Part shown: piece by piece, positions 31,951 to 42,243 of the stretch
How the letters are laid out: each line of letters starts with the position of its first letter
How positions within the stretch are numbered: the stretch's first letter is position 1
Origin: an uncultured Eubacteriales bacterium
GTDB lineage: Bacteria; Bacillota; Clostridia; Christensenellales; CAG-138
Direction of reading: 5' to 3'
Assembly: GCA_900545265.1 (NCBI GenBank)
Contig: UQYI01000003.1
Coordinates: 8,932-72,931 of the forward strand
DNA: 64,000 nucleotides
Translations under genes and position numbers: made by a program
The notes under the pieces: model-generated
Database searches by the model: none
What the model was told of the DNA's origin: nothing
What the model saw: the letters and a program-made list of their open reading frames with translations, nothing else

Positions 31951-32770
31951 TCACTTTGCAGCGGACGGTCCCTGGTCATGCAGGAGCCGCCGCTGTTTTT
32001 TATATACACCGTTCACCAGCAGCAGCGAAAGCAGCGTGGCAGCGGCACAGAAAAGATAGTATCCGGTATAGCTGCCGGTCGCATCCGCCAACAGCCCCGG
32101 CAGCGGAGACATGCACAGCCCGCCCAGAGTACAGCAGGACTGAAGCTTTTTCAGTGTGGAGGCATACTGGGCTTCATCCGTCAGTTCCGCCACCCACATG
32201 GGGGTTCCTACGGTGCTGATGGTAAAGCAGCCCAGCCCCAGACATATGGCCACCGCATATACCGGCAAAGGCGATATGCCGTTGAAGCATACCACGCCCA
32301 CATGGCCCAGTATCAGCATCCCGTAATACAGCAGGTTGGCTTTTTCCACACCCATGGCGTCTGCCGCCACGCCGTAAAGGGGCTTGCCTACCATGTTCAT
32401 AAGGCCGTTAAGGGCCATGACGGAGCTGACAAACACCACGTCATACCCGGCCGCAATGGTTGAAAAGTTAAAATTATCCCAGCTGCAATAGGTAAAGAAG
32501 CCTGCGCAGACCATGGCAATGCCAAGCAGGAGCACTACCTGCTTCCCTACCGGGGGAAGCTTTTTCTTTTCTTTCTGAACGGAATGTTCCCACGCCCCAT
32601 AGGGTGCCAGCTGCAGCGCCTCCGGGCTTTCCCGCAGGAAAAGGAGCACCACCAGCCCCAGCAGGGCAAAGAGCCCGCCCATGATCAGTTCCGCCGTCAG
32701 AACACCTTTTTCGGATACGATCCCGGTAACGGGTACAGACAGAAGCAGCGAAGTCACTCCTGAGCTCATG
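31951..32770 (-). pseudogene. MFS transporter, 5'-truncated and fused in frame to the reductase remnant
   Basis: This is the C-terminal ~270 aa of ORF 31951-32952. It has 2 TM helices, a central loop (RESPEALQLAPYGAWEHSVQKEKKKLPPVGK) and 6 TM helices. About 4 N-terminal TM helices are absent. The junction position is approximate (32766-32787). Confidence 0.65.
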
Positions 32771-33149
32771 GCACATATAAAGGGCACATCCTCTTTGGGA
32801 TCGGCATTTTCGGCTACAAACACCAGGTTGATGAGCTTTGCATAGGGAGACATCTCGGCCGCCGGGCCGGACATATCCACCATACCGTTCATGCCCTGCC
32901 GGCTGTGCAGCCCGGCGCCCAGCACGCACATACCGTCCAGTGCGTAGGTCACGCCGCTGCCTTGACGGGAATGATGCGGGTGCTGTCTCCCGGCCGGGCA
33001 ATGTGCAGGGAAACGTTTTTCAATTTTCCGTCCTTATTCAGCGCCTCTATGGCTTCTTCCCGGTTTACGGTGAGGATCCCGTCCGCAAAGGCGTTTTCTT
33101 CACCGAACCGAACGTCTTTGACGCTGAAATGTCCGATCTCCAATTTCAT
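32771..33149 (-). pseudogene. N-terminal remnant of a GrdE/GrdI-type reductase proprotein subunit, in two frames
   Basis: MKLEIGHFSVKDVRFGEENAFADGILTVNREEAIEALNKDGKLKNVSLHIARPGDSTRIIPVK is followed by a stop. Family-like sequence then resumes in another frame: GSGVTYALDGMCVLGAG...GMVDMSGPAAEMSPYAKLINLVFVAE. Confidence 0.7.
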
Positions 33150-33220
33150 GTCCTGAAATCCCTCCTCTTATATGCACGCCTCAAAGGGCCGTTGCATTGA
33201 CCGAATAAATTACCAGTTCA

Positions 33221-33249
33221 ATTATATGGAAATAACCGATACATTTCAA
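33221..33249 (-). promoter_or_regulatory. Consensus sigma-A promoter upstream of the reductase remnant
   Basis: Minus strand: TTGAAA (33249-44), 17-nt spacer, TATAAT (33226-21). A GAGGAGGGA SD precedes the ATG at 33149. Confidence 0.6.
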
Positions 33250-33609
33250 TGTGACTCACGTACATGAAATTCCATAAAAGCAGAGTTTTCTTCCATATGC
33301 TTTTTAATTTTATGTTCTATTTTGGCGTACTGTGGGCGGATATTGTACCGCAAAGGTTCCTTTTTTCACCTCTGTACTCACAAGAAGCCGCGTCCGGATG
33401 GCTTTTCTGTCACAATAACTTCACATTTTTCCATCCGTTTTTATGAAAAACAGTCTCTCCCTTTCCGTCGTTTTATAAAGAAAATTCCCTCGGGTGCACA
33501 AAATAAATACAAAAAAGTCCCTTGGATGCACAAAGCAAATGTGATACTGTAAGAAAGAATCAACAGGCAGCACCTGCCCCAGCCTTTGCGGGTGCTCAAA
33601 GGAGGATCT

Positions 33610-34101
33610 ATGCCCCCATACAAAATCAAGCCCATGGAGACCGAGACGGAGATGGACGGCAAGGGCTACGTCCATTATAAAAGCTGGCAAGAAACTTACC
33701 CCGGCCTGGTGCCGCAGGCATATCTTGAAAGCGTAACGCTGGAAAGCTGTACCGCTATGGCCCGCCGCTGGCGCAATAACATTCTTATTGCCAAAGACGG
33801 AAAACAGGTCATTGGGTTTGCCGCCTTCGGCCCCTGCCGGGACGATAGACTGCGGAACTGCGGAGAGATCATTGCCCTATATACCCTGCAAGCCTGTTAT
33901 GGAAAAGGCGCCGGGCAGATGCTGCTGCAAGCTGCTTTAGAAAAACTCTCCGGCTATGCGCATATCTTCCTCTGGGTGCTCCGTGGAAACAGCCGGGCGA
34001 TCCGTTTTTATGAAAAAAACGGCTTCCGCTTTGACGGCACCCAAAGAGATATCCTTTTAGGCACACCGGTAACGGAGCTTCGAATGTATCTGGAAAAGTA
34101 G
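33610..34101 (+). CDS. GNAT family N-acetyltransferase
   Basis: Start at MPPYKIKPMETE (AAAGGAGG SD). The acetyl-CoA motif LYTLQACYGKGAGQMLL and C-terminal AIRFYEKNGFRFDG are present. Confidence 0.75.
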   Translation: MPPYKIKPMETETEMDGKGYVHYKSWQETYPGLVPQAYLESVTLESCTAMARRWRNNILIAKDGKQVIGFAAFGPCRDDRLRNCGEIIALYTLQACYGKGAGQMLLQAALEKLSGYAHIFLWVLRGNSRAIRFYEKNGFRFDGTQRDILLGTPVTELRMYLEK

Positions 34102-34117
34102 CAGAAAGGAAACGCCT

Positions 34118-34843
34118 ATGCGCTTAAAAGCCGCTTTTATCGATATAGACAATACGCTGTTGGATTTTGACGCCTATGTGCGCCAAACCATGGAAAAAGG
34201 ATTCGCCCGCTTCGGGCTTTGCCCTTACGCTCCGTGGATGTATCATGTGTTCACCCGGGAGAACAATGCTCTCTGGCGGCGCATTGAGGCGGGAACGCTG
34301 ACCTTTCCGGAACTGGAAAAGATCCGCTGGAATACCGTTTTTGCCGCTTTGGGCATACAGGGGGACGGCCCCGCCTTTGAAGCTTATTTTCGGAAGGAGC
34401 TCCATGAAAGCGCCATTCCCGTGCCGGGCGCCATGGATCTGCTGCGGGAACTCCGGGGTAAGTGCATCCTCTGCGCCGCCAGCAACGGACCTGAGGAACA
34501 GCAGCTTCACCGGCTGCAGCTGAGCGGTATGGACGACTTCTTTGATGATTTCTTTATTTCTCAGGGATTGGGGGCCTCCAAACCCTCCAAAGACTTTTAT
34601 GCACGGGCTTTTGCCCGGCTGAATGCCGGCCGGCGCCTGCCTATCCTGCCGGAGGAAACGGTGATGATCGGGGACTCCCTGACCTCGGATATGACCGGCG
34701 GATTGGGTTACGGTATGGCCGTATGCTTTTTCCGCCGGGATTCCGGGCAGGAAGTCCCCGCCTGCATCCCTCTTGCGGCGGATCGTCTGACGGATATCCC
34801 CCCTATGCTGGAAAATTTTTTCGGCTTTTCGCCCCCTGCCTGA
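34118..34843 (+). CDS. HAD-superfamily hydrolase (YjjG-like nucleotidase subfamily)
   Basis: 241-aa ORF with motif I FIDIDNTLLDF, later SNGPEEQQ, and motif IV MIGDSLTSDMTGG. Confidence 0.8.
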   Translation: MRLKAAFIDIDNTLLDFDAYVRQTMEKGFARFGLCPYAPWMYHVFTRENNALWRRIEAGTLTFPELEKIRWNTVFAALGIQGDGPAFEAYFRKELHESAIPVPGAMDLLRELRGKCILCAASNGPEEQQLHRLQLSGMDDFFDDFFISQGLGASKPSKDFYARAFARLNAGRRLPILPEETVMIGDSLTSDMTGGLGYGMAVCFFRRDSGQEVPACIPLAADRLTDIPPMLENFFGFSPPA

Positions 34844-34891
34844 CGGTTCTTCGTTTCTCAGGCCCATGGGGGCTTTTTTTGTAAAACACGC

Positions 34892-34919
34892 TTGCATTTA
34901 TTCCTTCTTATGTTATACT
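34892..34919 (+). promoter_or_regulatory. Sigma-A promoter of the TetR-led operon
   Basis: TTGCAT (34892-97), 16-nt spacer, TGT-TATACT (34914-19, extended -10). Confidence 0.6.
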
Positions 34920-34920
34920 C

Positions 34921-34940
34921 TAAATGAACGTGTTCATTTA
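34921..34940. promoter_or_regulatory. Palindromic operator candidate (TetR site) between the -10 element and the SD
   Basis: TAAATGAAC-GT-GTTCATTTA, with 9 of 10 positions symmetric, immediately downstream of the -10 element. Confidence 0.55.
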
Positions 34941-34950
34941 AGGAGAATAC

Positions 34951-35505
34951 ATGCCAAAAATCATAGAAAACCTGCGGGAAATCCTGCTCGCCGCCTCCCG
35001 GACCCTGCTGCTGGAAGAAGGCTATCGGGCTTTGACCATGCGCCAGGTTGCAGGTCTGTGCCATGTGGCCGTGGGAACGGTATATAACTATTTCCCCTCC
35101 AAAGATATGCTGGCCGCACACATCCTGCTGGAAGACTGGAATGACCTGCTCCGTTCCCTGCAGAAAAAAGTCAATGCCGCCCCCGCGCCCATGGACGGGC
35201 TGGAAGCCGTTTTTTCCGGCTTGCGTGCTTTCTCCCGGCGGTACCGCCCTATCTGGGAGGAATATGACGGCAGCGCCGCCCTGCCTTTTCGGCAGTGGCA
35301 TGGCCGGTTGATCGAACAGCTTGCCGCCTGCATGGAGCCTCTGCTCCGGCGTTTCGACCTGCTGTTTGCCCCGATCTTTCCCAAATTTCTTGCTCAGGCC
35401 CTGTTAAGCTGGTCTTTGGAGGAGGACACAGAGTTTTCCGCTCTGCGTCCTGTTCTGGACCGGCTTTTACAACCATACACAAAACAAGGAGGATACCGTT
35501 TATGA
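34951..35505 (+). CDS. TetR/AcrR family transcriptional regulator
   Basis: 184-aa ORF with HTH LTMRQVAGLCHVAVGTVYNYFPSKDML. Its stop overlaps the next start (ATGA). Confidence 0.8.
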   Translation: MPKIIENLREILLAASRTLLLEEGYRALTMRQVAGLCHVAVGTVYNYFPSKDMLAAHILLEDWNDLLRSLQKKVNAAPAPMDGLEAVFSGLRAFSRRYRPIWEEYDGSAALPFRQWHGRLIEQLAACMEPLLRRFDLLFAPIFPKFLAQALLSWSLEEDTEFSALRPVLDRLLQPYTKQGGYRL

Positions 35506-36425
35506 GCAGTTTTAAGGATCTGCGTATTGTGGACAATTTCTACCAGACCTCTGCCTTCTTTCCCATGCCGACGGTGCTTATCAGCACCCTGACGCCGGAA
35601 GGGCAGACTTCCCTGGGGCCCTATTCTCTGGTGGCTCCCTACTACATTGCAGGCAAGGATTATTATGCCATGCTCCTGTGCTGCCGGAACTCTTCCAACA
35701 CCGCCCAGCACCTGCTGCAAAACGGTAAATGCGCCCTGAATTTCATTCCCGACAAGCGCAAATATTTTAAGGAAGCGGTGCGTCTGGGCTTCCCCGGGGA
35801 TACGCCCGAAGAAAAGATGAAGGGCTGTATCTTTACGCTGGAACCTGGTCAGGCGCCCTGTCAAGAAGGAGAACAGCGGCCCCAGGTCATTGCCGAAGCC
35901 TATCAGGTCTTTGAATGCACCTGGATGCGGGAGCTGGACAACGCCCAGACGGATCAGCCGGGAGAGCGTAACGGGTATCCCGGCCCCTATCATGACTTCA
36001 ACGGCATCACCTCGCCTTTCGGCGCTCATTTTATTCTTCGGGTGGATAAGATCCTCATGAAGGAAAAGTATTATGATGCCATCGTCAACGGCGTCCGGGC
36101 AGGGGATTTCCCCCGGGTACCTGTGGATTACGGCTATCGGGACAGCAAGAACTTCTGGTATACCAAGTTCCGCCGCCCCATTCCGGAGCTTCTGCCCATC
36201 CGGGAAACCAGTCTGGAGTCTGTGCGCTATGCCGCCAACCGGGCGGATGATGTGGTAAAGTTTACCGACGCCGCCTGTATGAAGCTTATCAAAGTGCCCC
36301 GGATCTTTTTGCCCACGGCCCTCAAAGGCTGTGTCCAGTGGGCCAAAGAAAATGGCGTTACTCTCATCGATGAGAAGGAGATGGACATCATCAACGACAA
36401 GCGGGCCAAGGAAAAGAACCGCTGA
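35502..36425 (+). CDS. Flavin reductase-like (FMN-binding split-barrel) domain protein with a C-terminal extension
   Basis: Start at MSSFKDLRIVDNFYQTSAFFPMPTVLISTLTPEGQTSLGPYSLVAP... (AAGGAGG SD); the ORF track begins at 35295. The N-terminal ~170 aa resemble the flavin-reductase fold, and the last ~140 aa are unassigned. Confidence 0.55.
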   Translation: MSSFKDLRIVDNFYQTSAFFPMPTVLISTLTPEGQTSLGPYSLVAPYYIAGKDYYAMLLCCRNSSNTAQHLLQNGKCALNFIPDKRKYFKEAVRLGFPGDTPEEKMKGCIFTLEPGQAPCQEGEQRPQVIAEAYQVFECTWMRELDNAQTDQPGERNGYPGPYHDFNGITSPFGAHFILRVDKILMKEKYYDAIVNGVRAGDFPRVPVDYGYRDSKNFWYTKFRRPIPELLPIRETSLESVRYAANRADDVVKFTDAACMKLIKVPRIFLPTALKGCVQWAKENGVTLIDEKEMDIINDKRAKEKNR

Positions 36426-36435
36426 GGTACCCGCC

Positions 36436-37146
36436 ATGCCTGCATCCGCTTTTGATTCTTTGCCGGAGCTGCTTATACGCAGCTTTGGCGAAAACATTCC
36501 TTTGAAGGAGATCTCTGCCGCCCCCTATGCCGTCATGTCCTGGCCCCGTTTTTTGCCTATGATGCACTTTCGTGTGCGCCGCTGGCAGGCCGGTGAACAG
36601 GGCTATGTATTTTTGATGCAGACCCGGGCCATGGGCGGACTTATGAAGCTGATCACCGCTTCCTTTATGCCTGCCTCCGGGATAGAAGCCCCCTTTGTGC
36701 TTATGGACTGCATGGAGATGCGGCAGAAGCGCACGGTCTTTGTGGAGTATTACGACTGCACTGCCAAAGGAGTCTGTGCCCCGGAGCTGGATCGGATCCG
36801 GGAAAAGTATGACCCGCTGCTGACGGACTATACGGAAAAACCCGCCTGGTACATACAGGAGCGTATGGACTGTTCCCTGATCAAGGGCGGTACACGAGAG
36901 CAGGAGGCTCTGCTGCTGCAGATGCTTCAGGACAGCGCCCGCGCCTGCGGCGCCCTTTGGGATCGGGCACCCAGAGATCCTGCCAATCTGCCCGGCCTTG
37001 CCGCTTTCCGCAGCCGGATGCTTACCGAAGGAAATCCTTCCTCTTCCACCATGGAAAAGGTATTGGGAAAAGAAGGTGCGAACGCCTTCTTCCTCAATGC
37101 CGTTATGCCCATGCACACCTCACAACCGAATCAAACTGAAAAATAA
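36436..37146 (+). CDS. Hypothetical protein, possibly ferredoxin-dependent-bilin-reductase-like
   Basis: Start at MPASAFDSLPELL; the ORF track begins at 36331, overlapping the previous gene. By-eye resemblance to PcyA-type proteins is weak (see finding). Confidence 0.4.
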   Translation: MPASAFDSLPELLIRSFGENIPLKEISAAPYAVMSWPRFLPMMHFRVRRWQAGEQGYVFLMQTRAMGGLMKLITASFMPASGIEAPFVLMDCMEMRQKRTVFVEYYDCTAKGVCAPELDRIREKYDPLLTDYTEKPAWYIQERMDCSLIKGGTREQEALLLQMLQDSARACGALWDRAPRDPANLPGLAAFRSRMLTEGNPSSSTMEKVLGKEGANAFFLNAVMPMHTSQPNQTEK

Positions 37147-37158
37147 AGGAGTATAAGC

Positions 37159-38004
37159 ATGAAAATTGTATTGGCCGGTGCTTACGGCAATTTAGGCAGC
37201 GACATTCTCCGCTCTCTTTTGCGGGAAGGCCATGAAGTAGTAGCTGCAGACATGATGGAACGGGATCTGGGTCTGACGGGCCGTTTTTCTTTCAGAAAGA
37301 TCGATGTGACTGATCCCGCTTCCCTGAAAGGACTGTGCGAGGGAGCGGATATGCTCATCTCCACTGTAGGCCTTACCAAGACCTCCGCCACGCTGGATAA
37401 CTATCAGATTGACTATCAGGGCAACGTGAACCTGCTGCGGGAAGCGCAGGCAGCCGGCGTGAAAAAGTTCATCTATATCTCCGTGCTCAAAGCGGATAAG
37501 GCCCCCAAGGTGCCCATGCTTCACGCCAAGTACCTGATGGAGGAGGAGCTGAAAAAGAGCGGCCTTTCCTACATCATTTACCGGCCCACCGGGTATTTCT
37601 ATGATATCGTGAAGGTATTCCGTCCCATGATCGAAAAGGGAGAAGTTACGCTTTTAGGCAATACCCCCGTCAGCGCCAACGTTATTGACACCCCTGACTT
37701 TGCGGATTATATCGCAGCCCACCTTATGGACCCCAACGGCATTGTAAACATTGGCGGCCGGGAGACTTATTCCTACGAAGAGATCGCCCGCATGTGTTTT
37801 GCCGCCGCCGGAAAAGAGCCTGTGATCAAACATGCACCGCCTTTCCTGTTTGACGTGCTGGCCTTTGTCAACAAGCTCAAGAAGAATGGTAAAGAAGCCA
37901 TACTCCGCTTTTCCAAATGGACGCTGACGGAATCCATGGTAGCGGAAGTGCAGGCCGGGAACCACAGCTTTAAGCAATACATTCAGGACAGTTTTGCAAA
38001 ATAA
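37159..38004 (+). CDS. NAD(P)H-binding atypical SDR / NmrA-like oxidoreductase
   Basis: 281-aa ORF with the Rossmann N-terminus MKIVLAGAYGNLGSDILRSLLREGHEVVA and a later ...YRPTGYFYD motif. Confidence 0.75.
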   Translation: MKIVLAGAYGNLGSDILRSLLREGHEVVAADMMERDLGLTGRFSFRKIDVTDPASLKGLCEGADMLISTVGLTKTSATLDNYQIDYQGNVNLLREAQAAGVKKFIYISVLKADKAPKVPMLHAKYLMEEELKKSGLSYIIYRPTGYFYDIVKVFRPMIEKGEVTLLGNTPVSANVIDTPDFADYIAAHLMDPNGIVNIGGRETYSYEEIARMCFAAAGKEPVIKHAPPFLFDVLAFVNKLKKNGKEAILRFSKWTLTESMVAEVQAGNHSFKQYIQDSFAK

Positions 38005-38019
38005 GGAGGCATACCATCT

Positions 38020-38811
38020 ATGGGTTGGGAATATCTGTGGATCCTGGCCGTGGTGGCGGCAGTGCTTTGTGCCGTGGGCTACTACAAGTTTGTTTACTTT
38101 CTTTCCATCGGCTACGGTTTTGCCGTAGCGGGCATCGGCGTTGCCCTGGTGGTTCTTTTTCACGGGCAGATGGCTCCTGTTCATTATGTGCAGTGCGCCC
38201 TGCTGGCCGCTTATGGTACCCGGCTTTCCGGCTTTCTGCTGTACAGAGAGATCAAAAATGCCGCTTACCGAAAGACCCTCAAGGAAGTCACTGCTTCGGA
38301 AAAAGATATGCCCCTGCCGGTAAAGTTCTGTATCTGGGTCTCGGTGACCGTGCTGTATGTAGCCCAGACCAGCCCTGTGTTTTTCCGGCAGTACAACGGC
38401 GGGGCCGCTGGATTCCTGCCATGGGTAGGCTGCTGCATCAGCCTGCTGGCCCTGGTGCTGGAATCTGCCGCTGACCGGCAGAAAAGTGCCCAGAAGGCGG
38501 AAAATCCCCACATGGTAGCCACCAAAGGGCTGTATAAGCTGGTGCGCTGTCCCAATTATCTGGGGGAGATCCTTTTCTGGACCGGCGTGCTGGTGGGCAG
38601 TCTCAATATTCTCTCCGGAGTCGGTCAATGGCTTACGGCGATACTTGGGTATGTGTGCATCGTACTGATCATGTTCAACGGCGCACAGCGGTTGGAAAAG
38701 CGCCAGTCCGCCCGCTACGGCAATGACCCGGCTTACCGGCTCTATGCCGATAAAACCCCTATCCTTATCCCCTTTGTCCCCCTGTATCACCTTTACAAGG
38801 AGGAAAAATAA
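38020..38811 (+). CDS. DUF1295 / steroid-5-alpha-reductase-fold membrane protein
   Basis: 263-aa polytopic ORF with the C-terminal signature TKGLYKLVRCPNYLGEILFWTGVLV. Confidence 0.7.
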   Translation: MGWEYLWILAVVAAVLCAVGYYKFVYFLSIGYGFAVAGIGVALVVLFHGQMAPVHYVQCALLAAYGTRLSGFLLYREIKNAAYRKTLKEVTASEKDMPLPVKFCIWVSVTVLYVAQTSPVFFRQYNGGAAGFLPWVGCCISLLALVLESAADRQKSAQKAENPHMVATKGLYKLVRCPNYLGEILFWTGVLVGSLNILSGVGQWLTAILGYVCIVLIMFNGAQRLEKRQSARYGNDPAYRLYADKTPILIPFVPLYHLYKEEK

Positions 38812-39444
38812 ATGCACCTGTCCCTGCCCATGGCTCTGGCGGACTTTGTGCCCGTCGGCCTGTTTCTTGCCGCCTCCGTACTGCTGCAACGGGATCTGTA
38901 TAACAAGATGAGCAAGGGCGCCTTTGCCCTTTTTGCAGGAGGCACCATCATGGTCTTTCTGGCAGGCGCCTGTAAAGCCTTGTGGAAGCTACTGTATGCC
39001 ATCGGCCTGTGTGATTTCACCGCCCTGAGCGCCATGTTTTTCCCCATGCAGACAGCAGGCTTTGTGCTGGCTGCTTTGGCTCTGATCGCACTGCTCACCG
39101 CCCGTCAGGGAAAGGGCACGGCGTACGCCGTTGCCGCCGTCCCGCCGGTATTTTCCGGCACCATGCTGTTTGTAGCGCTGACCCTGCTGGGCACCCTGGG
39201 CCTTTGCGGTTGTCTCAGTCTCATCGCCCTCAGGATCCGCAGAAAAGCGGCTGCATTGTGGTTTGTGCTGGCCTTTATACTCATGATGGCCATGGGCTAT
39301 CTCTCCTCCCGGGATTTCTCCCAGGCCGCTTCCCACTGGATGGCCGAGGGTGTCAATATTCTGGGGCAGGGCGCCCTGCTGCTGGGCGTCCTGGATCTGC
39401 ATCGCCATGGCCTTGCCTCTGCCGCCCTGCACAAGCGGTCATGA
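38812..39444 (+). CDS. Integral membrane protein (about 6 TM), unknown function
   Basis: 210-aa hydrophobic ORF. Its ATG directly abuts the upstream TAA, and an AAGGAGG SD lies inside the upstream gene. Confidence 0.6.
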   Translation: MHLSLPMALADFVPVGLFLAASVLLQRDLYNKMSKGAFALFAGGTIMVFLAGACKALWKLLYAIGLCDFTALSAMFFPMQTAGFVLAALALIALLTARQGKGTAYAVAAVPPVFSGTMLFVALTLLGTLGLCGCLSLIALRIRRKAAALWFVLAFILMMAMGYLSSRDFSQAASHWMAEGVNILGQGALLLGVLDLHRHGLASAALHKRS

Positions 39445-39462
39445 CAGGTGGTCTTTTCAGCA

Positions 39463-39500
39463 GGCCGGAGATTCTGTGGATCTCCGGCCGCTTTATTTTT
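39463..39500 (+). terminator. Intrinsic terminator ending the TetR-led operon
   Basis: GGCCGGAGAU-UCUGUG-GAUCUCCGGCC followed by GCUUUAUUUUU. Confidence 0.8.
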
Positions 39501-39502
39501 GG

Positions 39503-39531
39503 TAGACAATATAAAAAAGGGGACGTATACT
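39503..39531 (+). promoter_or_regulatory. Candidate promoter for the nitroreductase gene
   Basis: TAGACA (39503-08), 17-nt spacer, TATACT (39526-31). Confidence 0.5.
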
Positions 39532-39544
39532 ACTTGAAAAATGA

Positions 39545-40318
39545 ATGGAGGTGTTCATTCTGGATCCGTCTTTATATCCCATGCTTTTCAAGCGCAAATC
39601 CTTTCATCTGTTCCGCAACTTGGGGAATGCTTCCATGACGGAAGACGATATTGCCGATATCCGCCGTGCTTTTACCGGCTTTACTCCTCTGTACCCGGAT
39701 ATCCGGGTATGCATGGAGCTGGTGCCTGCTGCCGAAACCTCCTGCCCGACCGGAGCGGAATATTGTGCCCTTTTCTACAGCGAAGATAAAGATGGTTATC
39801 TGCGGAACATCGGCTATTTGGGAGAGCAGCTGGATCTGTATCTGGCCAAAAAGAATATCGCCTCCCTTTGGTGCGGCCTGGGCAAGCCCCATCGCCCGGC
39901 ACCGGAGGGCATGACCTACTGCATCATGATCGTTATGGCGAAAGTATCCGGGCCGGAAAAGTTTCGCAAAGATATGTTCAAGGCAAAACGAAAGCCGATA
40001 GAGGAGATCTGGCAGGGAGATGCCATCCCTGGCGTTACGGACATTGTCCGCTTTGCTCCCAGTGCCTGCAACAGTCAACCGTGGAAAACGGAATATGCAA
40101 ACGGCATTATGCAGGTCTTCCGATACCAGAAGCCCGGCCGGGCAGGCATTATGAATCAGGAGCACGCCGCCTACTTCAACCGCATAGACATGGGTATCTA
40201 CCTGTGTTTTCTGGATCTGTGTCTGGCTCACGAAGGCATCCCGTTTTCCCATGTTATGCTGCCTGACAGTGTCGGTGCGGTTTTTACACCCATCGCCAGC
40301 TATATGCTGCAGCGATAA
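39545..40318 (+). CDS. Nitroreductase family protein
   Basis: 257-aa ORF with LFKRKSFHLFRN near the N-terminus and RFAPSACNSQPW. The exact start is uncertain; ATG 39545 has no SD, and GGAGGTG sits at codons 2-3. Confidence 0.7.
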   Translation: MEVFILDPSLYPMLFKRKSFHLFRNLGNASMTEDDIADIRRAFTGFTPLYPDIRVCMELVPAAETSCPTGAEYCALFYSEDKDGYLRNIGYLGEQLDLYLAKKNIASLWCGLGKPHRPAPEGMTYCIMIVMAKVSGPEKFRKDMFKAKRKPIEEIWQGDAIPGVTDIVRFAPSACNSQPWKTEYANGIMQVFRYQKPGRAGIMNQEHAAYFNRIDMGIYLCFLDLCLAHEGIPFSHVMLPDSVGAVFTPIASYMLQR

Positions 40319-40324
40319 CGACTT

Positions 40325-40360
40325 AGCCCCGGAGCCGTACCGTTCCGGGGCTTCTTTTCT
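40325..40360 (+). terminator. Intrinsic terminator after the nitroreductase gene
   Basis: AGCCCCGGA-N10-UCCGGGGCU followed by UCUUUUC. Confidence 0.7.
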
Positions 40361-40535
40361 ATAACTGTATTATATGGGCATCCATTTTTGAACATTGCAG
40401 ATAATTGTATGAAAATGGATAAAATATTGCTATGTTATTTTGCAACTTCTTTTCCCGTTCATATATCAGCCACATTTGTGCATTGTTTTTACAGTTTATT
40501 CATGAAAATGAAGGGGACTTCGCCGGATTTACACA

Positions 40536-40563
40536 TTGAAAAACAGCAAAAAATTGTTACAAT
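40536..40563 (+). promoter_or_regulatory. Sigma-A promoter upstream of the Spo0A-like pair
   Basis: TTGAAA (40536-41), 16-nt spacer, TGT-TACAAT (40558-63), inside an AT-rich spacer. Confidence 0.55.
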
Positions 40564-40627
40564 GGAGAGGAACGTTCACCCGGAATACGACTTTTTTCAC
40601 ACATGCATGCATCATATTGTTTATCAC

Positions 40628-41449
40628 ATGGAATGGGGAGACGAGAAATTGAAGACTCTACAGATCGTAAGCGCCGACCAGTCTCTGGCGGAAGCCTTGA
40701 TAGCTGCCTCGGCATCCTTACACCAGTTCCACCCAGTACCGGTACTTGCCGGCGGACGAGCCTTTGCAGAAGAACTGCTGCTCACTTCTCCGGATGCTGT
40801 GCTGCTGGATATGGACCTGCCCGACATGGACGCATTGGAAGCTTTGGAACTGTTGGATGGCCTGCCCCTTGCCACACGGCCCAGACTGTTCCTCATGACC
40901 GGTCCCTACGGCAAAATGGGAGAGGCGTATCTGAGCCACCGGATACACTACTGTTTCCTGAAGCCTCTGGATCCAGAAAGCGTACTGCACACTATGATCC
41001 GGCTATTGGGCGACTGCCCTGCCGTACCGCCGGTAGTGCGTCCCTGCTACAGACTTGTGGACCAGCTGGCCACCGGGATACTCTTTTCTCTGGGCGTTCC
41101 GCCCCAGCTTCAGGGCTATCATCTGCTCAGAGAAGCCATCAAGCTGGTGACCTGGGTAGAAAACCCCGCCAGTCTTTCCGTCATGAAGGATATCTATCCC
41201 GCTGCGGCAGATCTGTGCGGCTGTACCGTGGGCATGGCGGAACACGCCATGCGCCATGCCATAGAAAGCGCCTGGATGCGGGCAGACCTGGATACCCTGC
41301 AGCGCTTCTTCGGTTATACGGTGGGCGCTCACCGGGATACGCCTTCCAATTCCGCTTTTATCTATATGGCGGCAGACAGGGTACGTATGGAATTGACCCA
41401 ACTATGGCCCGGGCTCATGTATGAGCGCAGAGAGGCGGCCTGCGTATGA
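40628..41449 (+). CDS. Spo0A-like response regulator (receiver plus Spo0A-type effector domain)
   Basis: The receiver reads ...LQIVSADQS...VLLDMDLPDMDALE...FLMTG...CFLKP. The effector reads GVPPQLQGYHLLREAIKLV...MAEHAMRHAIESAWMRADLDTLQRFFGYTV...PSNSAFIYMAADRV. Start is either ATG 40628 or TTG 40649 (GGGGAG SD); the ORF track begins at 40388 in AT-rich non-coding-looking DNA. Confidence 0.75.
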   Translation: MEWGDEKLKTLQIVSADQSLAEALIAASASLHQFHPVPVLAGGRAFAEELLLTSPDAVLLDMDLPDMDALEALELLDGLPLATRPRLFLMTGPYGKMGEAYLSHRIHYCFLKPLDPESVLHTMIRLLGDCPAVPPVVRPCYRLVDQLATGILFSLGVPPQLQGYHLLREAIKLVTWVENPASLSVMKDIYPAAADLCGCTVGMAEHAMRHAIESAWMRADLDTLQRFFGYTVGAHRDTPSNSAFIYMAADRVRMELTQLWPGLMYERREAACV

Positions 41450-42243
41450 TGCTGATCGCCCTTCAATGCGGCAAAGAATGGACGAACCGCCTTCTTGCCG
41501 CCGCCCGGGATATGCCCTGGTGTCAGTTGGCCACCGGCTTTGTTCAAGCCCCCTGTGCTGTGATCCGGGATGGTCTGGCAGATACTTCCGTCTCCCTTTA
41601 TCCTCAAAATAAGGATATTCCTCTGTTTTTTATCAGTTCCCGGGAAGCACCTGCTCCTGCAGATTCCCATGCAGAATATGTCTTTTCCCCCAATGTTACG
41701 GCGCAGGGCGTCCTCCGCCACATCGGCGCACTGCTGGCCGATCCTTCCGGGCAGCTCCTTCCTGAAAAGCAGCGCCTGCGGGAAATGGTCTCTCTCAGTC
41801 TGGAAAAGCTGGGCATCGGTTCCCATCTGCTGGCTCACCGCTATTTGCAGGAGGGCGTAGTCTTTCTTTTTGACACCCCGTATCCCGGCCGCATACGGCT
41901 CATGGCCAAGCTCCATGAACATCTGTCGCAATGCTTTGATACTTCTCCCGTAATGGTGGACAGAGCCATTCGCCATGGCGTAGAGGTGTGCTGGAAGAAA
42001 AGTTCCCCGGAGCTTCAGCGGGCTTATTTCGGCTACAGTGCTCAGGATAAACGAGGCATGCCCACCAACGGAGAATTTCTGTTTGCCCTGTATGAGCGGC
42101 AGCGGCAGTTGTTGTTTGCCGACCGGGGCCGGGAAGACTTTTTCCGCTGTCTGGAAAAAGTCCGCTCCCGCAGCGGCTGCCGCCTGTTTCTGGAAGAAGA
42201 ACCCAGTTCCCCCTCTTCCGGGCAGAAAGCGCAGCTTCCCTGA
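41446..42243 (+). CDS. Spo0A-effector-domain protein with a degenerate (pseudo-)receiver
   Basis: 265-aa ORF that is ATGA-coupled to the upstream gene. The C-terminal half reads GIGSHLLAHRYLQEGVVFL...MVDRAIRHGVEVCWKKSSPELQRAYFGYS...PTNGEFLFALYER. The N-terminal half (MMLIALQCG...) lacks the acidic pocket and the conserved Lys. Confidence 0.7.
   Translation: MMLIALQCGKEWTNRLLAAARDMPWCQLATGFVQAPCAVIRDGLADTSVSLYPQNKDIPLFFISSREAPAPADSHAEYVFSPNVTAQGVLRHIGALLADPSGQLLPEKQRLREMVSLSLEKLGIGSHLLAHRYLQEGVVFLFDTPYPGRIRLMAKLHEHLSQCFDTSPVMVDRAIRHGVEVCWKKSSPELQRAYFGYSAQDKRGMPTNGEFLFALYERQRQLLFADRGREDFFRCLEKVRSRSGCRLFLEEEPSSPSSGQKAQLP

What the first reader, a model, noticed from the sequence alone, without database searches (positions are those of the whole stretch)
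34892..39500. TetR-gated six-gene operon made almost entirely of poorly characterised reductase-fold and membrane proteins
A promoter (TTGCAT-16-TGTTATACT) and a palindromic operator are followed by six genes. In order these are tetR, a flavin-reductase-like split-barrel protein with a 140-aa unknown extension, a 236-aa unknown protein (possibly bilin-reductase-like), an NmrA-like atypical SDR, a DUF1295/steroid-5-alpha-reductase-fold membrane protein and a 6-TM protein. A strong terminator at 39463-39500 closes the unit. The genes are tightly packed: an ATGA overlap at 35502-35505, gaps of 10, 12, 15 and 0 nt, and SD sequences inside upstream genes. This implies co-translation as one unit. 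Three or four different reductase scaffolds, two membrane proteins and a ligand-sensing TetR together suggest an inducible pathway. Such a pathway could reduce C=C or C=O bonds of a hydrophobic conjugated substrate (steroid or bile acid, bilin, polyene or quinone-like xenobiotic). I know of no characterised system with this composition.
Basis: inference. Interest (0 to 1): 0.55.

Follow-up and report, generated by a model that had tools for sequence, protein, structure and literature searches.

The report
TetR-gated reductase operon with bilin-reductase fold
A common uncultured human-gut Clostridia bacterium carries a repressor-controlled six-gene operon of reductases and membrane proteins, conserved across gut and rumen Firmicutes, one of which is a previously unrecognised distant relative of the enzymes that reduce bile-pigment-like molecules; its substrate is still unknown.

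Summary
Six tightly packed + strand genes (34951-39444) lie between a promoter/operator and a strong terminator. Comparative data support a functional unit. The operator core TGAACNNGTTCA lies upstream of 31 of 40 TetR homologues in fetched loci (37 matches in 1.42 Mb, about 1.4 expected).

The conserved core is TetR, a split-barrel flavoprotein, an NmrA-like SDR, DUF1295 and a 6-TM protein. The last three were always found together (18 of 18). TetR plus the flavoprotein also occur alone.

The 236-aa "unknown" is an accessory member. Its model (pLDDT 94) matches ferredoxin-dependent bilin reductases (PcyA, TM 0.78). A broadened profile reaches PebB by sequence (E 8e-5). The central catalytic Asp is invariant and the second acid is replaced by Asn.

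In other genomes the flavoprotein is fused or adjacent to a flavodoxin plus 2x[4Fe-4S] module. DUF1295 keeps the steroid-5-alpha-reductase NADPH motif.

Best reading: an inducible, multi-step reductive pathway for a hydrophobic conjugated substrate, most plausibly a tetrapyrrole. The substrate is inferred, not shown. I found no characterised system of this composition. Three of the six proteins have no Pfam family at threshold. Interest is moderate to high.

The parts
34860..34882 (+). Terminator-like hairpin plus T-run that closes the upstream HAD-hydrolase gene and isolates the operon
   Evidence: stem 34860-34875, 6 pairs, then TTTTTGTAAA; sequence
34892..34919 (+). Promoter: -35 TTGCAT (34892-34897), 16-nt spacer, extended -10 TGtTATACT (34911-34919)
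   Evidence: Sequence. The -35 matches at only 3 of 6 positions, so the scan did not list it. The same layout (TTGACA-like -35, about 17 nt, TATAAT-like -10 ending 2-5 nt before the operator) recurs in most of 36 homologous sites.
34921..34940 (.). TetR operator: perfect 9-bp inverted repeat TAAATGAAC-gt-GTTCATTTA, abutting the -10 and covering the likely transcription start
   Evidence: Sequence. It is the only exact ATGAACNNGTTCAT in the 64-kb window. TGAACNNGTTCA occurs 37 times in 1.42 Mb of related loci, against about 1.4 expected. 31 of 40 TetR homologues have it within 200 nt upstream of their start, observed distances 17-100 nt.
34951..35505 (+). TetR-family repressor, 184 aa, first gene (autoregulated)
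   Evidence: PF00440 TetR_N, 46.7 bits. Best NCBIfam hits cover the DNA-binding domain only (KstR 38.7 bits against a cutoff of 280). 39 homologues conserve the HTH residues plus D62, W63 and H117.
35502..36425 (+). Split-barrel flavin-reductase-like protein, 307 aa, with a conserved C-terminal extension of about 115-120 aa of unknown fold. It is the most conserved member.
   Evidence: PF01613 at 23.8 bits, below the cutoff of 27. The AF2 model has pLDDT of only 65.6. Foldseek matches residues 1 to about 190 to NbaA, flavoredoxin, CtcQ and PH0856, E 2e-9. At least 8000 clusters, the top 120 at 76-100% identity. Fused to flavodoxin plus 2x[4Fe-4S] in L023, L028, L032 and L039.
36436..37146 (+). 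Ferredoxin-dependent-bilin-reductase (FDBR)-fold protein, 236 aa, no Pfam family; an accessory member of the operon
   Evidence: AF2 pLDDT 94.4, pTM 0.91. Foldseek: PcyA 2g18 E 1.5e-10, TM 0.78, followed by PebB, PebA, HY2, RCCR and PebS. Broadened profile A3 against the PDB: PebB E 7.8e-5, PebS 3.7e-3. Distant relatives give sub-threshold PF05996 hits. D91 is invariant and aligns with PebS D105. N200 aligns with PebS D206.
37159..38004 (+). NmrA-like / NAD(P)H-binding atypical SDR, 281 aa
   Evidence: PF13460 at 69.2 bits and PF05368 at 59.4 bits. GAYGNLG motif and conserved PML.AK and RPTGYFYD motifs. Nearest PDB sequences: 3e8x, 5f5n, NDUFA9, YtfG.
38020..38811 (+). [quoted passage not shown]
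   Evidence: PF06966 at 92.4 bits, PF02544 at 24.8 bits. VRCPNYLGEILFW aligns with the matching motif of the bacterial 5-alpha-reductase homologue 7c83 and is conserved in 33 homologues. A DUF1295-like fungal protein, UsgR, is a proven ene-reductase (PMC8597850).
38812..39444 (+). Membrane protein of about six TM segments, 210 aa, uncharacterised family (no Pfam, no PDB relative)
   Evidence: at least 3450 clusters, all 'hypothetical'. Hydropathy and conserved D11, P14, K55, K59, FFPxQ, MGYLS, W176, N182; no conserved His. Pairs alone with the FDBR-like gene in L027, L044 and L047.
39463..39500 (+). Intrinsic terminator closing the operon
   Evidence: 12-bp stem with 8 GC pairs, 3-nt loop, then GCTTTATTTT; sequence

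Best explanation
This is a ligand-inducible, TetR-repressed operon for stepwise reduction of a hydrophobic conjugated molecule.

Regulation:
- The TetR dimer sits on the 20-bp palindrome directly after the -10 and blocks initiation, including of its own gene.
- An unknown small molecule is expected to release it.

The five downstream proteins would then form a reductive pathway:
- The split-barrel flavoprotein, the ancient partner of this TetR, takes reducing equivalents from NAD(P)H and/or a ferredoxin/flavodoxin-type carrier.
- It passes them on to the FDBR-fold protein, which binds the substrate in its alpha/beta/alpha sandwich. That protein would use the invariant central Asp (D91) for proton-coupled reduction.
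- The NmrA-like SDR and the membrane-embedded DUF1295 ene-reductase carry out NAD(P)H-dependent reductions of further C=O or C=C bonds at the membrane.
- The 6-TM protein acts as importer, scaffold or substrate-presenting partner.

The substrate class I consider most likely is a tetrapyrrole available in the gut, such as a bile pigment, a haem-derived porphyrin or a chlorophyll catabolite.

What is shown and what is inferred:
- Shown: operon anatomy, the conserved operator, the conserved gene association, the folds and family relationships, and the flavodoxin/Fe-S fusion.
- Inferred: the direction of electron flow, the role of each enzyme, the inducer and the substrate.
For: - Operon anatomy.
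- Operator: the core lies upstream of 31 of 40 TetR homologues, 37 hits against about 1.4 expected, always abutting a -10. It is also kept in loci that hold only TetR and the flavoprotein, and upstream of the FDBR-like gene in L013.
- Gene linkage: NmrA, DUF1295 and the 6-TM protein co-occur in 18 of 18 cases and follow the flavoprotein in 18 of 31 evaluable metagenome loci. The set survives order shuffling in L010, L030 and L066 and spans three families of Firmicutes.
- FDBR relationship: pLDDT 94 model, PcyA TM 0.78, E 1.5e-10. Profile A3 hits PebB at E 7.8e-5 over profile positions 41-218. Paralogues score up to 28.8 bits on PF05996. D91 aligns with the catalytic Asp.
- Redox chain: flavodoxin plus 2x[4Fe-4S] is fused to the flavoprotein in 4 loci and is an adjacent gene in 3 more. 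In six of these seven loci an FDBR-like gene is also in the cluster. The seventh, L087, has none.
- DUF1295: reductase-type cofactor motif and a proven ene-reductase relative.
- Habitat: human gut, rumen and hindgut for the full module.
- Established knowledge: all characterised FDBR-fold enzymes (PcyA, PebA/B/S, HY2, RCCR), and the fold-related coproporphyrinogen oxidase, act on tetrapyrroles.
Against: - The FDBR-like gene is optional (8 of 31 loci), so the core pathway cannot depend on it.
- Half of its homologues are solitary, next to housekeeping genes.
- The second catalytic acid of PebS/PebB is Asn or Gly here.
- A distant subfamily has an N-terminal membrane anchor or signal peptide. 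It is probably extracytoplasmic, which fits a binding protein better than a ferredoxin-fed enzyme.
- No haem oxygenase, ChuW-like radical SAM, haem transporter or bilin-binding protein appears within 10 kb of the operon in the window's own species. The other loci were not screened for these.
- The flavoprotein model is poor (pLDDT 65.6) and its Pfam score is below threshold.
- Common strain lineages carry frameshifts in the 6-TM gene or in DUF1295, so the module is dispensable in vivo.
- Nothing here identifies the inducer.
Confidence: 0.4

Rival explanations
1. Detoxification of, or respiration-independent reduction of, plant-derived or xenobiotic electrophiles: quinones, flavones/chromones, nitroaromatics or other enones. 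TetR senses the compound. The split-barrel flavoprotein is the primary reductase. The SDR and DUF1295 ene-reductase finish the job at the membrane. The FDBR-fold protein has been recruited as a binding or auxiliary reductase for a planar aromatic that is not a tetrapyrrole.
For: - TetR plus the flavoprotein form the ancestral, often stand-alone pair with the same operator.
- The closest structural matches of the flavoprotein include a nitroreductase (NbaA) and FMN proteins crystallised with p-hydroxybenzaldehyde or hydroquinone.
- The DUF1295-like UsgR reduces the 2,3 double bond of a naphtho-gamma-pyrone, a chromone-type enone.
- NmrA-like relatives include the quinone reductase YtfG.
- The window neighbourhood looks like a stress/efflux island: TM1586 nitroreductase, MarR plus MATE, TetR plus an ABC transporter, GNAT.
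- The gene set is enriched in herbivore guts.
Against: - It does not explain why an FDBR-fold protein with the tetrapyrrole-contacting Asp is repeatedly recruited, often in two copies and next to ferredoxin-type genes.
- The very high conservation of the flavoprotein (70-85% identity across families) suggests one specific substrate or partner rather than broad detoxification.
Confidence: 0.25
2. Membrane-lipid or isoprenoid reduction: biohydrogenation or detoxification of unsaturated fatty acids, reduction of phytol/polyprenyl chains, or remodelling of plasmalogen-type lipids. The TetR would sense a fatty acid or acyl-CoA. DUF1295, the SDR and the 6-TM protein would act on the lipid in the membrane.
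For: - DUF1295 belongs to the clan of steroid/polyprenol reductases, with a conserved NADPH-type motif.
- NmrA, DUF1295 and the 6-TM protein form a strictly linked, membrane-centred trio.
- The best NCBIfam hits of the TetR DNA-binding domain are lipid-sensing regulators (KstR, Bacillus FadR, FasR).
- The operator core GAACNNGTTC resembles the KstR motif TnnAACnnGTTnnA (PMC1995591).
- A YhhN (lysoplasmalogenase-family) gene lies directly upstream of the FDBR-like gene in L025 and L029.
- Rumen and gut Firmicutes are the known biohydrogenators, and their genes are largely unidentified (my own knowledge).
Against: - The regulator similarities concern only the HTH domain, with scores far below the family cutoffs.
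- An FDBR fold and ferredoxin/flavodoxin fusions have no precedent in lipid reduction.
- The YhhN adjacency is a single lineage.
- The flavoprotein often occurs without any membrane partner.
Confidence: 0.2
3. The genes are merely neighbours, or a loosely co-regulated stress set, with no shared substrate.
For: - The FDBR-like gene and the flavoprotein each also occur alone.
- Frameshifted members persist in common strains.
Against: - Tight packing, with one promoter, one operator and one terminator.
- The trio co-occurs in 18 of 18 cases.
- The gene set is kept through rearrangements and across three families.
- A gene fusion links the redox partners.
Confidence: 0.05

Closest known systems
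Ferredoxin-dependent bilin reductases (PcyA, PebA, PebB, PebS, HY2, RCCR) and the pre-PcyA lineages of heterotrophic bacteria (PMC10151467, PMC13446030)
   Same: Alpha/beta/alpha sandwich fold (TM 0.72-0.78). An invariant Asp on the central sheet, aligned with PebS D105 and the LGLDLV motif of PebB. The E/D of the 'EYYD' / 'IDMQP' strand. Similar length. Ferredoxin-type genes next to it in six loci.
   Different: Only 10-14% identity and no Pfam PF05996 hit for the window protein. The second catalytic acid (PebS D206) is Asn or Gly. Found in strictly anaerobic, non-photosynthetic gut and rumen Firmicutes, which are not mentioned in either pre-PcyA paper. No haem oxygenase, globin or phytochrome neighbour. 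Embedded in a TetR-controlled reductase operon.
Gut bilirubin reductases BilR and BilV (PMC10769871; bioRxiv 10.64898/2026.06.10.731317; PMC13252198)
   Same: Gut Firmicutes, inducible, reductive saturation of a conjugated pigment, multi-enzyme logic.
   Different: BilV is described in the abstracts read as an Old Yellow Enzyme family flavoenzyme. That BilR belongs to the same family is my own recollection, not checked here. No OYE domain was found here. No sequence or fold relationship to any of the six proteins.
Steroid 5-alpha-reductase family (PbSRD5A, PDB 7c83) and the DUF1295-like fungal ene-reductase UsgR (PMC8597850)
   Same: Multi-pass membrane protein. C-terminal cofactor motif G.Y..VRCPNYLGEI..W aligned with 7c83. 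Proven enone C=C reduction in relatives.
   Different: Only a 51-residue stretch aligns by sequence (E 2.7e-4). The catalytic residues are not mapped. The bacterial DUF1295 substrate is unknown. Here it is strictly coupled to an NmrA-like SDR and a novel 6-TM protein.
KstR-type TetR regulons (PMC1995591)
   Same: TetR repressor. A palindromic operator with core AAC-NN-GTT that overlaps the promoter. The regulator is autoregulated and controls catabolic oxidoreductases for a hydrophobic substrate.
   Different: 38.7 bits against a KstR cutoff of 280. Similarity is confined to the HTH. The outer operator bases differ. Different phylum, and no steroid-catabolic genes.
Flavin reductases with extra domains (flavoredoxin, NbaA, the C1 component of HPAH 5zyr, SMa0793 3rh7)
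   Same: N-terminal FMN-binding split barrel, plus an appended C-terminal domain.
   Different: The C-terminal 115-120 aa matched nothing. 70-85% identity across bacterial families is unusual. There are natural fusions to flavodoxin plus 2x[4Fe-4S].

Membership tests
TetR-family repressor with palindromic operator | N-terminal TetR_N helix-turn-helix above the Pfam threshold | tested here: met
   PF00440 at 46.7 bits against a cutoff of 24
TetR-family repressor with palindromic operator | Inverted-repeat operator overlapping its own promoter, conserved with the regulator | tested here: met
   9-bp arms at 34921-34940. 31 of 40 homologues have TGAACNNGTTCA within 200 nt upstream of their start (observed 17-100 nt). 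37 hits against about 1.4 expected.
TetR-family repressor with palindromic operator | Ligand-induced release from DNA | not testable with these tools
   Needs EMSA or ITC with candidate ligands
Ferredoxin-dependent bilin reductase (FDBR, PF05996) | FDBR alpha/beta/alpha sandwich fold | tested here: met
   pLDDT 94.4 model. The top 45 PDB matches are FDBRs, RCCR and FDBR-like chains, with E down to 1.5e-10 and TM 0.78.
Ferredoxin-dependent bilin reductase (FDBR, PF05996) | Sequence membership: Pfam gathering score or a significant profile match | tested here: inconclusive
   No PF05996 hit for the window protein, even at E 10. Paralogues reach 17.7-28.8 bits against a cutoff of 31. The broadened family profile hits PebB at E 7.8e-5 and PebS at 3.7e-3. 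It is therefore a superfamily relative, not a PF05996 member.
Ferredoxin-dependent bilin reductase (FDBR, PF05996) | Central catalytic Asp (PcyA/PebS D105) | tested here: met
   D91 is invariant in 26 of 26 sequences and at least 90% conserved among 40. It aligns with PebS D105 and with LGLDLV of PebB.
Ferredoxin-dependent bilin reductase (FDBR, PF05996) | Second proton-donating residue (PebS D206 or PebB DPARG Asp; His88/Glu76 in PcyA) | tested here: not met
   The aligned position is an invariant Asn (GNPSS) in the close family and Gly in the wider family. PcyA-type His/Glu were not mapped.
Ferredoxin-dependent bilin reductase (FDBR, PF05996) | Ferredoxin as electron donor | tested here: inconclusive
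   A flavodoxin plus 2x[4Fe-4S] gene is adjacent to, or fused with, the neighbouring flavoprotein in L023, L028, L031, L032, L037 and L039. There is none in the window operon. Biochemistry is needed.
Ferredoxin-dependent bilin reductase (FDBR, PF05996) | Genomic association with a bilin source or sink (haem oxygenase, biliprotein, phytochrome) | tested here: not met
   No such Pfam family within 10 kb in the window's species. The recurrent neighbour families that were examined are unrelated.
Flavin reductase-like split barrel (PF01613) | Pfam gathering score | tested here: not met
   23.8 bits against a cutoff of 27, E 5.5e-5; 23.5 bits in the L039 fusion
Flavin reductase-like split barrel (PF01613) | Split-barrel fold of the N-terminal domain | tested here: met
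   Foldseek matches to NbaA, 3bpk, CtcQ, flavoredoxin and others, E 2e-9 to 1e-6 over about 180-230 columns. The model is only of medium confidence (pLDDT 65.6).
Flavin reductase-like split barrel (PF01613) | FMN/FAD binding and NAD(P)H oxidation | not testable with these tools
   Requires purified protein
DUF1295 / steroid-5-alpha-reductase-fold membrane reductases | PF06966 above threshold; multi-pass membrane protein | tested here: met
   92.4 bits against a cutoff of 20.4; hydropathy
DUF1295 / steroid-5-alpha-reductase-fold membrane reductases | Reductase-type C-terminal cofactor motif | tested here: met
   VRCPNYLGEILFW aligns with PbSRD5A 7c83. R176, C177, P178, N179, Y180, G182, E183 and W187 are at least 90% conserved.
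DUF1295 / steroid-5-alpha-reductase-fold membrane reductases | Catalytic Glu/Tyr pair and an enone substrate | not tested
   Conserved Y65, R68, R76 and E77 exist, but no structure-based mapping was possible
NmrA-like / atypical SDR | PF13460/PF05368 above threshold and an N-terminal GxxGxxG | tested here: met
   69.2 and 59.4 bits; GAYGNLG is conserved
NmrA-like / atypical SDR | Classical SDR catalytic YxxxK | tested here: inconclusive
   The conserved motif is PML.AK...E (K124 conserved, Y125 not). This fits an atypical SDR, but the catalytic competence is unknown.
BilR/BilV bilirubin reductases | Old Yellow Enzyme (TIM-barrel, FMN) domain | tested here: not met
   No OYE family was found in any of the six proteins or in the flanking genes

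The most novel reading that the evidence does not exclude
The operon is a previously unrecognised anaerobic tetrapyrrole-reducing pathway of gut Firmicutes, built around an FDBR-derived enzyme that is fed by a flavoprotein/Fe-S chain. Its SRD5A-fold ene-reductase would saturate the lactam or vinyl C=C bonds. It could be the still-missing system that converts urobilinogen to stercobilinogen, or that makes the haem-derived meso/deutero-porphyrins of faeces.
Probability: 0.12. Interest if true: 0.9.

Novelty: new variant of a known kind. Interest (0 to 1): 0.62.

Why it matters
1. It extends the bilin-reductase superfamily into strictly anaerobic, non-photosynthetic gut and rumen Firmicutes. There is no haem oxygenase next to it and no light-harvesting role. 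A bilin specialist would not expect this. It raises the question of what tetrapyrrole-like molecule these bacteria handle.

2. The organism and operon are very common in human gut metagenomes. The exact 236-aa protein is indexed in 333 blocks of the collection.

3. Reductive steps of bile-pigment metabolism beyond urobilinogen still had no enzyme in a paper dated August 2026 (PMC13526984). To my knowledge the same holds for haem-derived porphyrin modification and ruminal biohydrogenation.

4. The locus offers a defined and directly testable candidate:
- a known 20-bp operator;
- a small set of enzymes;
- natural frameshift lineages that can serve as controls;
- three families (flavoprotein extension, FDBR-like, 6-TM) that lack Pfam coverage at threshold.

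If it turns out to be a generic detoxification operon, the value is more modest: new family definitions and a well-defined TetR regulon.

Tried and rejected
- Pfam and NCBIfam at E up to 10 gave nothing for the 236-aa protein, the 6-TM protein or the flavoprotein extension.
- The original family profile A1 against PDB sequences gave only marginal PebS hits (E 0.07). The search became significant only after distant relatives were added.
- The 6-TM profile against the PDB gave no hit. A homologue search returned only 'hypothetical protein' names.
- The flavoprotein profile against the PDB gave only E 0.6 to an FMN-binding protein. Its AF2 model is mediocre, so the C-terminal domain stays unassigned.
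- Rfam found no RNA element in 33000-41000. Base composition shows no island signal.
- The flavoprotein has no match in the plasmid collection, so there is no sign of plasmid carriage.
- Neighbours of solitary FDBR-like genes are housekeeping genes (endonuclease III, a RarA-like ATPase, an aldolase, PyrI, peptidases) and gave no functional lead.
- Recurrent neighbours of the flavoprotein (alpha/beta hydrolase, HIT, a HypB-like GTPase, an ABC ATPase) are not consistently linked.
- A haem-sequestering bis-His membrane protein was considered for the 6-TM protein and rejected, because no His is conserved.
- Membership in KstR, FadR or BetI equivalogs was rejected on score.
- Literature searches for this gene combination, and for bilin reductases in Clostridia, found nothing relevant.

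Full report

Yes. The ORF list and sequence give six + strand genes:
- tetR: 34951-35505
- a 307-aa protein: 35502-36425, with an ATGA overlap at its start
- a 236-aa protein: 36436-37146
- an NmrA-like SDR: 37159-38004
- DUF1295: 38020-38811
- a 210-aa membrane protein: 38812-39444

The gaps are 10, 12, 15 and 0 nt. AAGGAG(G) ribosome-binding sites lie in front of five genes, two of them inside the preceding gene. The 236-aa gene has only GAGG.

The promoter reads TTGCAT (34892-34897), 16 nt, TATACT (34914-34919), preceded by an extended TG. Its -35 matches the consensus at only 3 of 6 positions, so the generic scan missed it. That scan found no more promoter-like sites than its shuffles.

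The palindrome is better than described. It has perfect 9-bp arms, TAAATGAAC and GTTCATTTA (34921-34940), with a 2-nt spacer, starting 2 nt after the -10. A 12-bp GC-rich hairpin plus T-run (39463-39500) ends the unit. A smaller hairpin (34860-34875) separates it from the upstream HAD hydrolase gene.

No Rfam element and no compositional anomaly are present.

**2. Is it more than chance?**

The window comes from an uncultured Eubacteriales MAG species that is very common in human gut metagenomes. The exact 236-aa protein is indexed in 333 blocks. Its proteins are named only 'hypothetical', 'SDR family oxidoreductase' or 'DUF1295 domain-containing'.

I fetched 47 genome loci anchored on the 236-aa protein and 80 metagenome loci anchored on the 307-aa protein. 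I then mapped all six proteins onto them.

Among 31 flavoprotein-anchored loci with enough flanking DNA:
- 18 carry NmrA, DUF1295 and the 6-TM gene, always all three together.
- 20 carry the TetR.
- 8 carry the 236-aa gene.
- 9 have the flavoprotein alone and 4 have only TetR plus the flavoprotein.

Among 28 evaluable loci anchored on the 236-aa protein:
- 14 carry at least one partner.
- 14 are solitary.

The set survives rearrangement:
- L010: TetR-NmrA-DUF1295-flavoprotein-6TM-236aa
- L030: 6TM-NmrA-DUF1295-236aa
- L066: flavoprotein-6TM-NmrA

It occurs in Oscillospiraceae, Lachnospiraceae and Erysipelotrichaceae from human, mouse, chicken, hare and many ruminant samples.

However, the conserved unit is a five-gene core, built from an older TetR-flavoprotein pair plus a strictly linked NmrA-DUF1295-6TM trio. 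The 236-aa gene is an optional insertion. Several loci add a second, divergent copy (25-27% identity) after the 6-TM gene.

**3. Regulation**

The operator is the best-supported element.
- TGAACNNGTTCA occurs 37 times in the 1.42 Mb of fetched loci, against about 1.4 expected for ten specified bases.
- 31 of 40 TetR homologues with upstream sequence have it within 200 nt upstream of their start codon, at observed distances of 17-100 nt.
- It is also present in loci with only TetR and the flavoprotein, in front of flavoprotein genes that lack an adjacent TetR (L116, L127), and in front of the 236-aa gene in L013.
- Anchoring on the operator shows a conserved layout: a TTGACA-like -35, about 17 nt, then a TATAAT-like -10 ending 2-5 nt before the palindrome.
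- The window contains a single exact site.

I infer classical TetR repression by promoter occlusion, with autoregulation and release by an unknown ligand.

The TetR's family hits concern only its DNA-binding domain and lie far below all equivalog cutoffs. The operator core resembles the KstR box TnnAACnnGTTnnA (PMC1995591). I treat this as a lead only.

Outside the HTH, D62, W63 and H117 are conserved among homologues that share only 30-50% identity.

**4. The 236-aa protein**

It has no Pfam or NCBIfam hit. It belongs to a family found almost only in gut and rumen Firmicutes.

- Fold: with a 26-sequence alignment, AlphaFold2 gives pLDDT 94.4 and pTM 0.91. Foldseek against the PDB returns ferredoxin-dependent bilin reductases as ranks 1-19, then red chlorophyll catabolite reductase. 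PcyA 2g18 scores E 1.5e-10 with TM 0.78, followed by PebB, PebA and HY2, at 10-14% identity. Coproporphyrinogen oxidase follows far behind.
- Family size: a profile search of 1.84 billion representatives finds 435 relatives.
- Sequence bridge: distant relatives give sub-threshold PF05996 hits of 17.7-28.8 bits against a cutoff of 31. A profile that includes them hits solved FDBRs by sequence: PebB at E 7.8e-5 over nearly the full length, PebS at 3.7e-3 and PcyA at 0.099.
- Residues: in these alignments the invariant D91 (LLIDxM) matches the catalytic Asp, which is D105 in PebS and lies in LGLDLV of PebB. E104 (VEYYD) matches the Asp of PebB 'IAIDMQP'. The invariant N200 (GNPSS) sits where PebS has D206. 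The D206N mutant chain 2x9j accordingly scores better than the wild type.

It is thus a remote FDBR-superfamily member that keeps the central acid and lacks the second one.

Neither paper on pre-PcyA proteins of heterotrophs mentions Firmicutes, Clostridia or gut organisms. A search for 'bilin reductase' with 'Clostridi' found only incidental co-mentions.

One caveat stands. A distant subfamily carries an N-terminal transmembrane anchor or a signal peptide. It is therefore probably extracytoplasmic, which suggests ligand binding rather than ferredoxin-driven catalysis in that branch.

**5. The flavoprotein**

- Its Pfam Flavin_Reduct score is below threshold (23.8 against 27).
- The AlphaFold model is only moderate (pLDDT 65.6).
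- Residues 1 to about 190 match flavin reductases, flavoredoxin and the nitroreductase NbaA (E 2e-9 and weaker).
- The C-terminal 115-120 residues matched nothing.
- It is strikingly conserved. There are at least 8000 clusters, the 120 best at 76-100% identity. Identity is 61-79% in loci from other families (for example 77% in a Lachnospiraceae locus and 67-68% in Erysipelotrichaceae loci), including the extension.

The most informative result is a natural fusion. In L039, L023, L028 and L032 a 576-579-aa ORF joins a flavodoxin domain (1-96), two [4Fe-4S] motifs (168-236) and the complete flavoprotein (286-576). In L031, L037 and L087 the same flavodoxin-ferredoxin protein is a separate adjacent gene.

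In L039 the order is: Fld-Fdx, distant FDBR-like, close FDBR-like, Fld-Fdx::flavoprotein, NmrA. This ties the flavoprotein to low-potential Fe-S/flavin electron transfer. It also places ferredoxin-type proteins beside FDBR-fold proteins, which is the donor relationship that defines FDBRs.

**6. The remaining members**

- The SDR has the GAYGNLG dinucleotide motif and conserved PML.AK and RPTGYFYD motifs. Its nearest solved sequences are atypical SDRs: 3e8x, 5f5n, NDUFA9 and the quinone reductase YtfG.
- DUF1295 scores 92 bits. Its VRCPNYLGEILFW segment aligns with the bacterial steroid 5-alpha-reductase homologue 7c83 and is conserved in 33 homologues.
- A DUF1295-like fungal protein, UsgR, has been shown experimentally to be an ene-reductase for a pyrone C=C bond (PMC8597850).
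- The 6-TM protein belongs to a large family (at least 3450 clusters) with no Pfam model, no solved relative and no informative name. It conserves D11, P14, K55, K59, FFPxQ, MGYLS, W176 and N182 but no histidine. It pairs alone with the FDBR-like gene in three loci.

**7. How it most likely works**

The anatomy, the operator, the linkage, the folds and the fusion are shown. From them I infer an inducible multi-step reductive pathway.
- The flavoprotein collects electrons from NAD(P)H and/or ferredoxin/flavodoxin.
- The FDBR-fold protein uses them on a bound planar substrate.
- The SDR and the membrane ene-reductase perform NAD(P)H-dependent reductions.
- The 6-TM protein imports or presents the hydrophobic substrate.

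I favour a tetrapyrrole substrate, with about 0.4 for the whole statement. Every characterised enzyme with this fold acts on one. The tetrapyrrole-contacting Asp is invariant. Bile pigments, haem porphyrins and chlorophyll catabolites are abundant in exactly these habitats.

Against this reading:
- The FDBR-like gene is optional.
- There are no haem- or bilin-related neighbours within 10 kb in the window's species.
- The second acid is missing.
- Some relatives are probably extracytoplasmic.

The rivals are electrophile or plant-phenolic detoxification (0.25) and lipid or isoprenoid reduction (0.2). A mere neighbourhood effect is unlikely (0.05).

**8. Comparison with known systems, and novelty**

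It works like a TetR-controlled catabolic or detoxifying reductase operon. It uses four known scaffolds. It is not a member of PF05996, of BilR/BilV (OYE family), of KstR or of any NCBIfam equivalog.

Three of the six proteins lack a family assignment at threshold. No paper in the searchable library describes this combination.

I class it as a new variant of a known kind. The FDBR-like family is the most novel element.

A paper dated August 2026 still calls the enzyme for the urobilinogen-to-stercobilinogen step unidentified (PMC13526984). The reading that this operon fills that gap, or a similar one, is not excluded. I put it at about 0.12.

**9. Strain variation**

A widespread lineage of the same species (187 blocks) has a 1-nt deletion, at window C39080, that splits the 6-TM gene into 90 and 93 aa. 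The other five genes stay intact.

Another strain has a 2-nt deletion in a TG repeat that truncates DUF1295.

The membrane part is therefore dispensable in some hosts. This gives natural controls for association studies.

Noticed in passing
L039:6435-8165 (also L023, L028, L032; separate gene in L031, L037, L087): A natural fusion of flavodoxin, two [4Fe-4S] motifs and the complete split-barrel flavoprotein (576-579 aa). In L039 it sits next to two FDBR-like genes and a further stand-alone flavodoxin-ferredoxin gene.
   Followed up: yes
window 39080 (6-TM gene); L134:6001-6632: A common lineage of the same species (indexed in 187 blocks) has a 1-nt deletion that splits the 6-TM gene into 90-aa and 93-aa ORFs. 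The other five genes are intact.
   Followed up: yes
window about 38653-38660 (DUF1295); L006:3128-3832: One strain has a 2-nt deletion in a short TG repeat (tatgtgtgcat to tatgtgcat). It frameshifts DUF1295, which is then called as 234 aa.
   Followed up: partly
proteins P0274, P0290, P0348, P0362, P0322 (distant relatives of window 36436-37146): A subfamily of the FDBR-like family has an N-terminal transmembrane anchor, or a signal peptide plus a repeat domain. This suggests extracytoplasmic FDBR-fold domains in Firmicutes. Odd fusions also exist: P0261 (metallophosphoesterase plus FDBR-like) and P0100 (HAD plus a fragment).
   Followed up: partly
window 39503-40318: Directly after the terminator lies a separately promoted TM1586-type nitroreductase gene (TAGACA-17-TATACT at 39503-39531). 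A 2-mismatch operator-like site (ATGGAGGTGTTCAT, 39545-39558) overlaps its annotated start. It was not found beside the operon in any fetched locus of another species (tblastn).
   Followed up: partly
window 40388-42243: Two tandem genes encode Spo0A C-terminal-domain proteins. The first has only a weak receiver-domain hit and the second has none. It is an unusual pair of Spo0A paralogues.
   Followed up: no
window 31951-33149 (- strand): A 66-aa ORF with a glycine-reductase-component (PF09338) hit overlaps by 4 nt an MFS transporter ORF of 333 aa. In another strain (L134) the two are called as one 422-aa product. This is either a strain-specific frameshift or an unusual fusion.
   Followed up: no
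L013:9907 and L116, L127: The TetR operator also occurs in front of module genes that have no adjacent tetR: before the FDBR-like gene in L013 and before the flavoprotein in L116 and L127. This implies regulation in trans, or a regulon with several operons.
   Followed up: partly
L025 and L029, gene directly upstream of the FDBR-like gene: A YhhN-family (lysoplasmalogenase-type) membrane protein lies immediately upstream of a solitary FDBR-like gene in two related Erysipelotrichaceae MAGs.
   Followed up: partly
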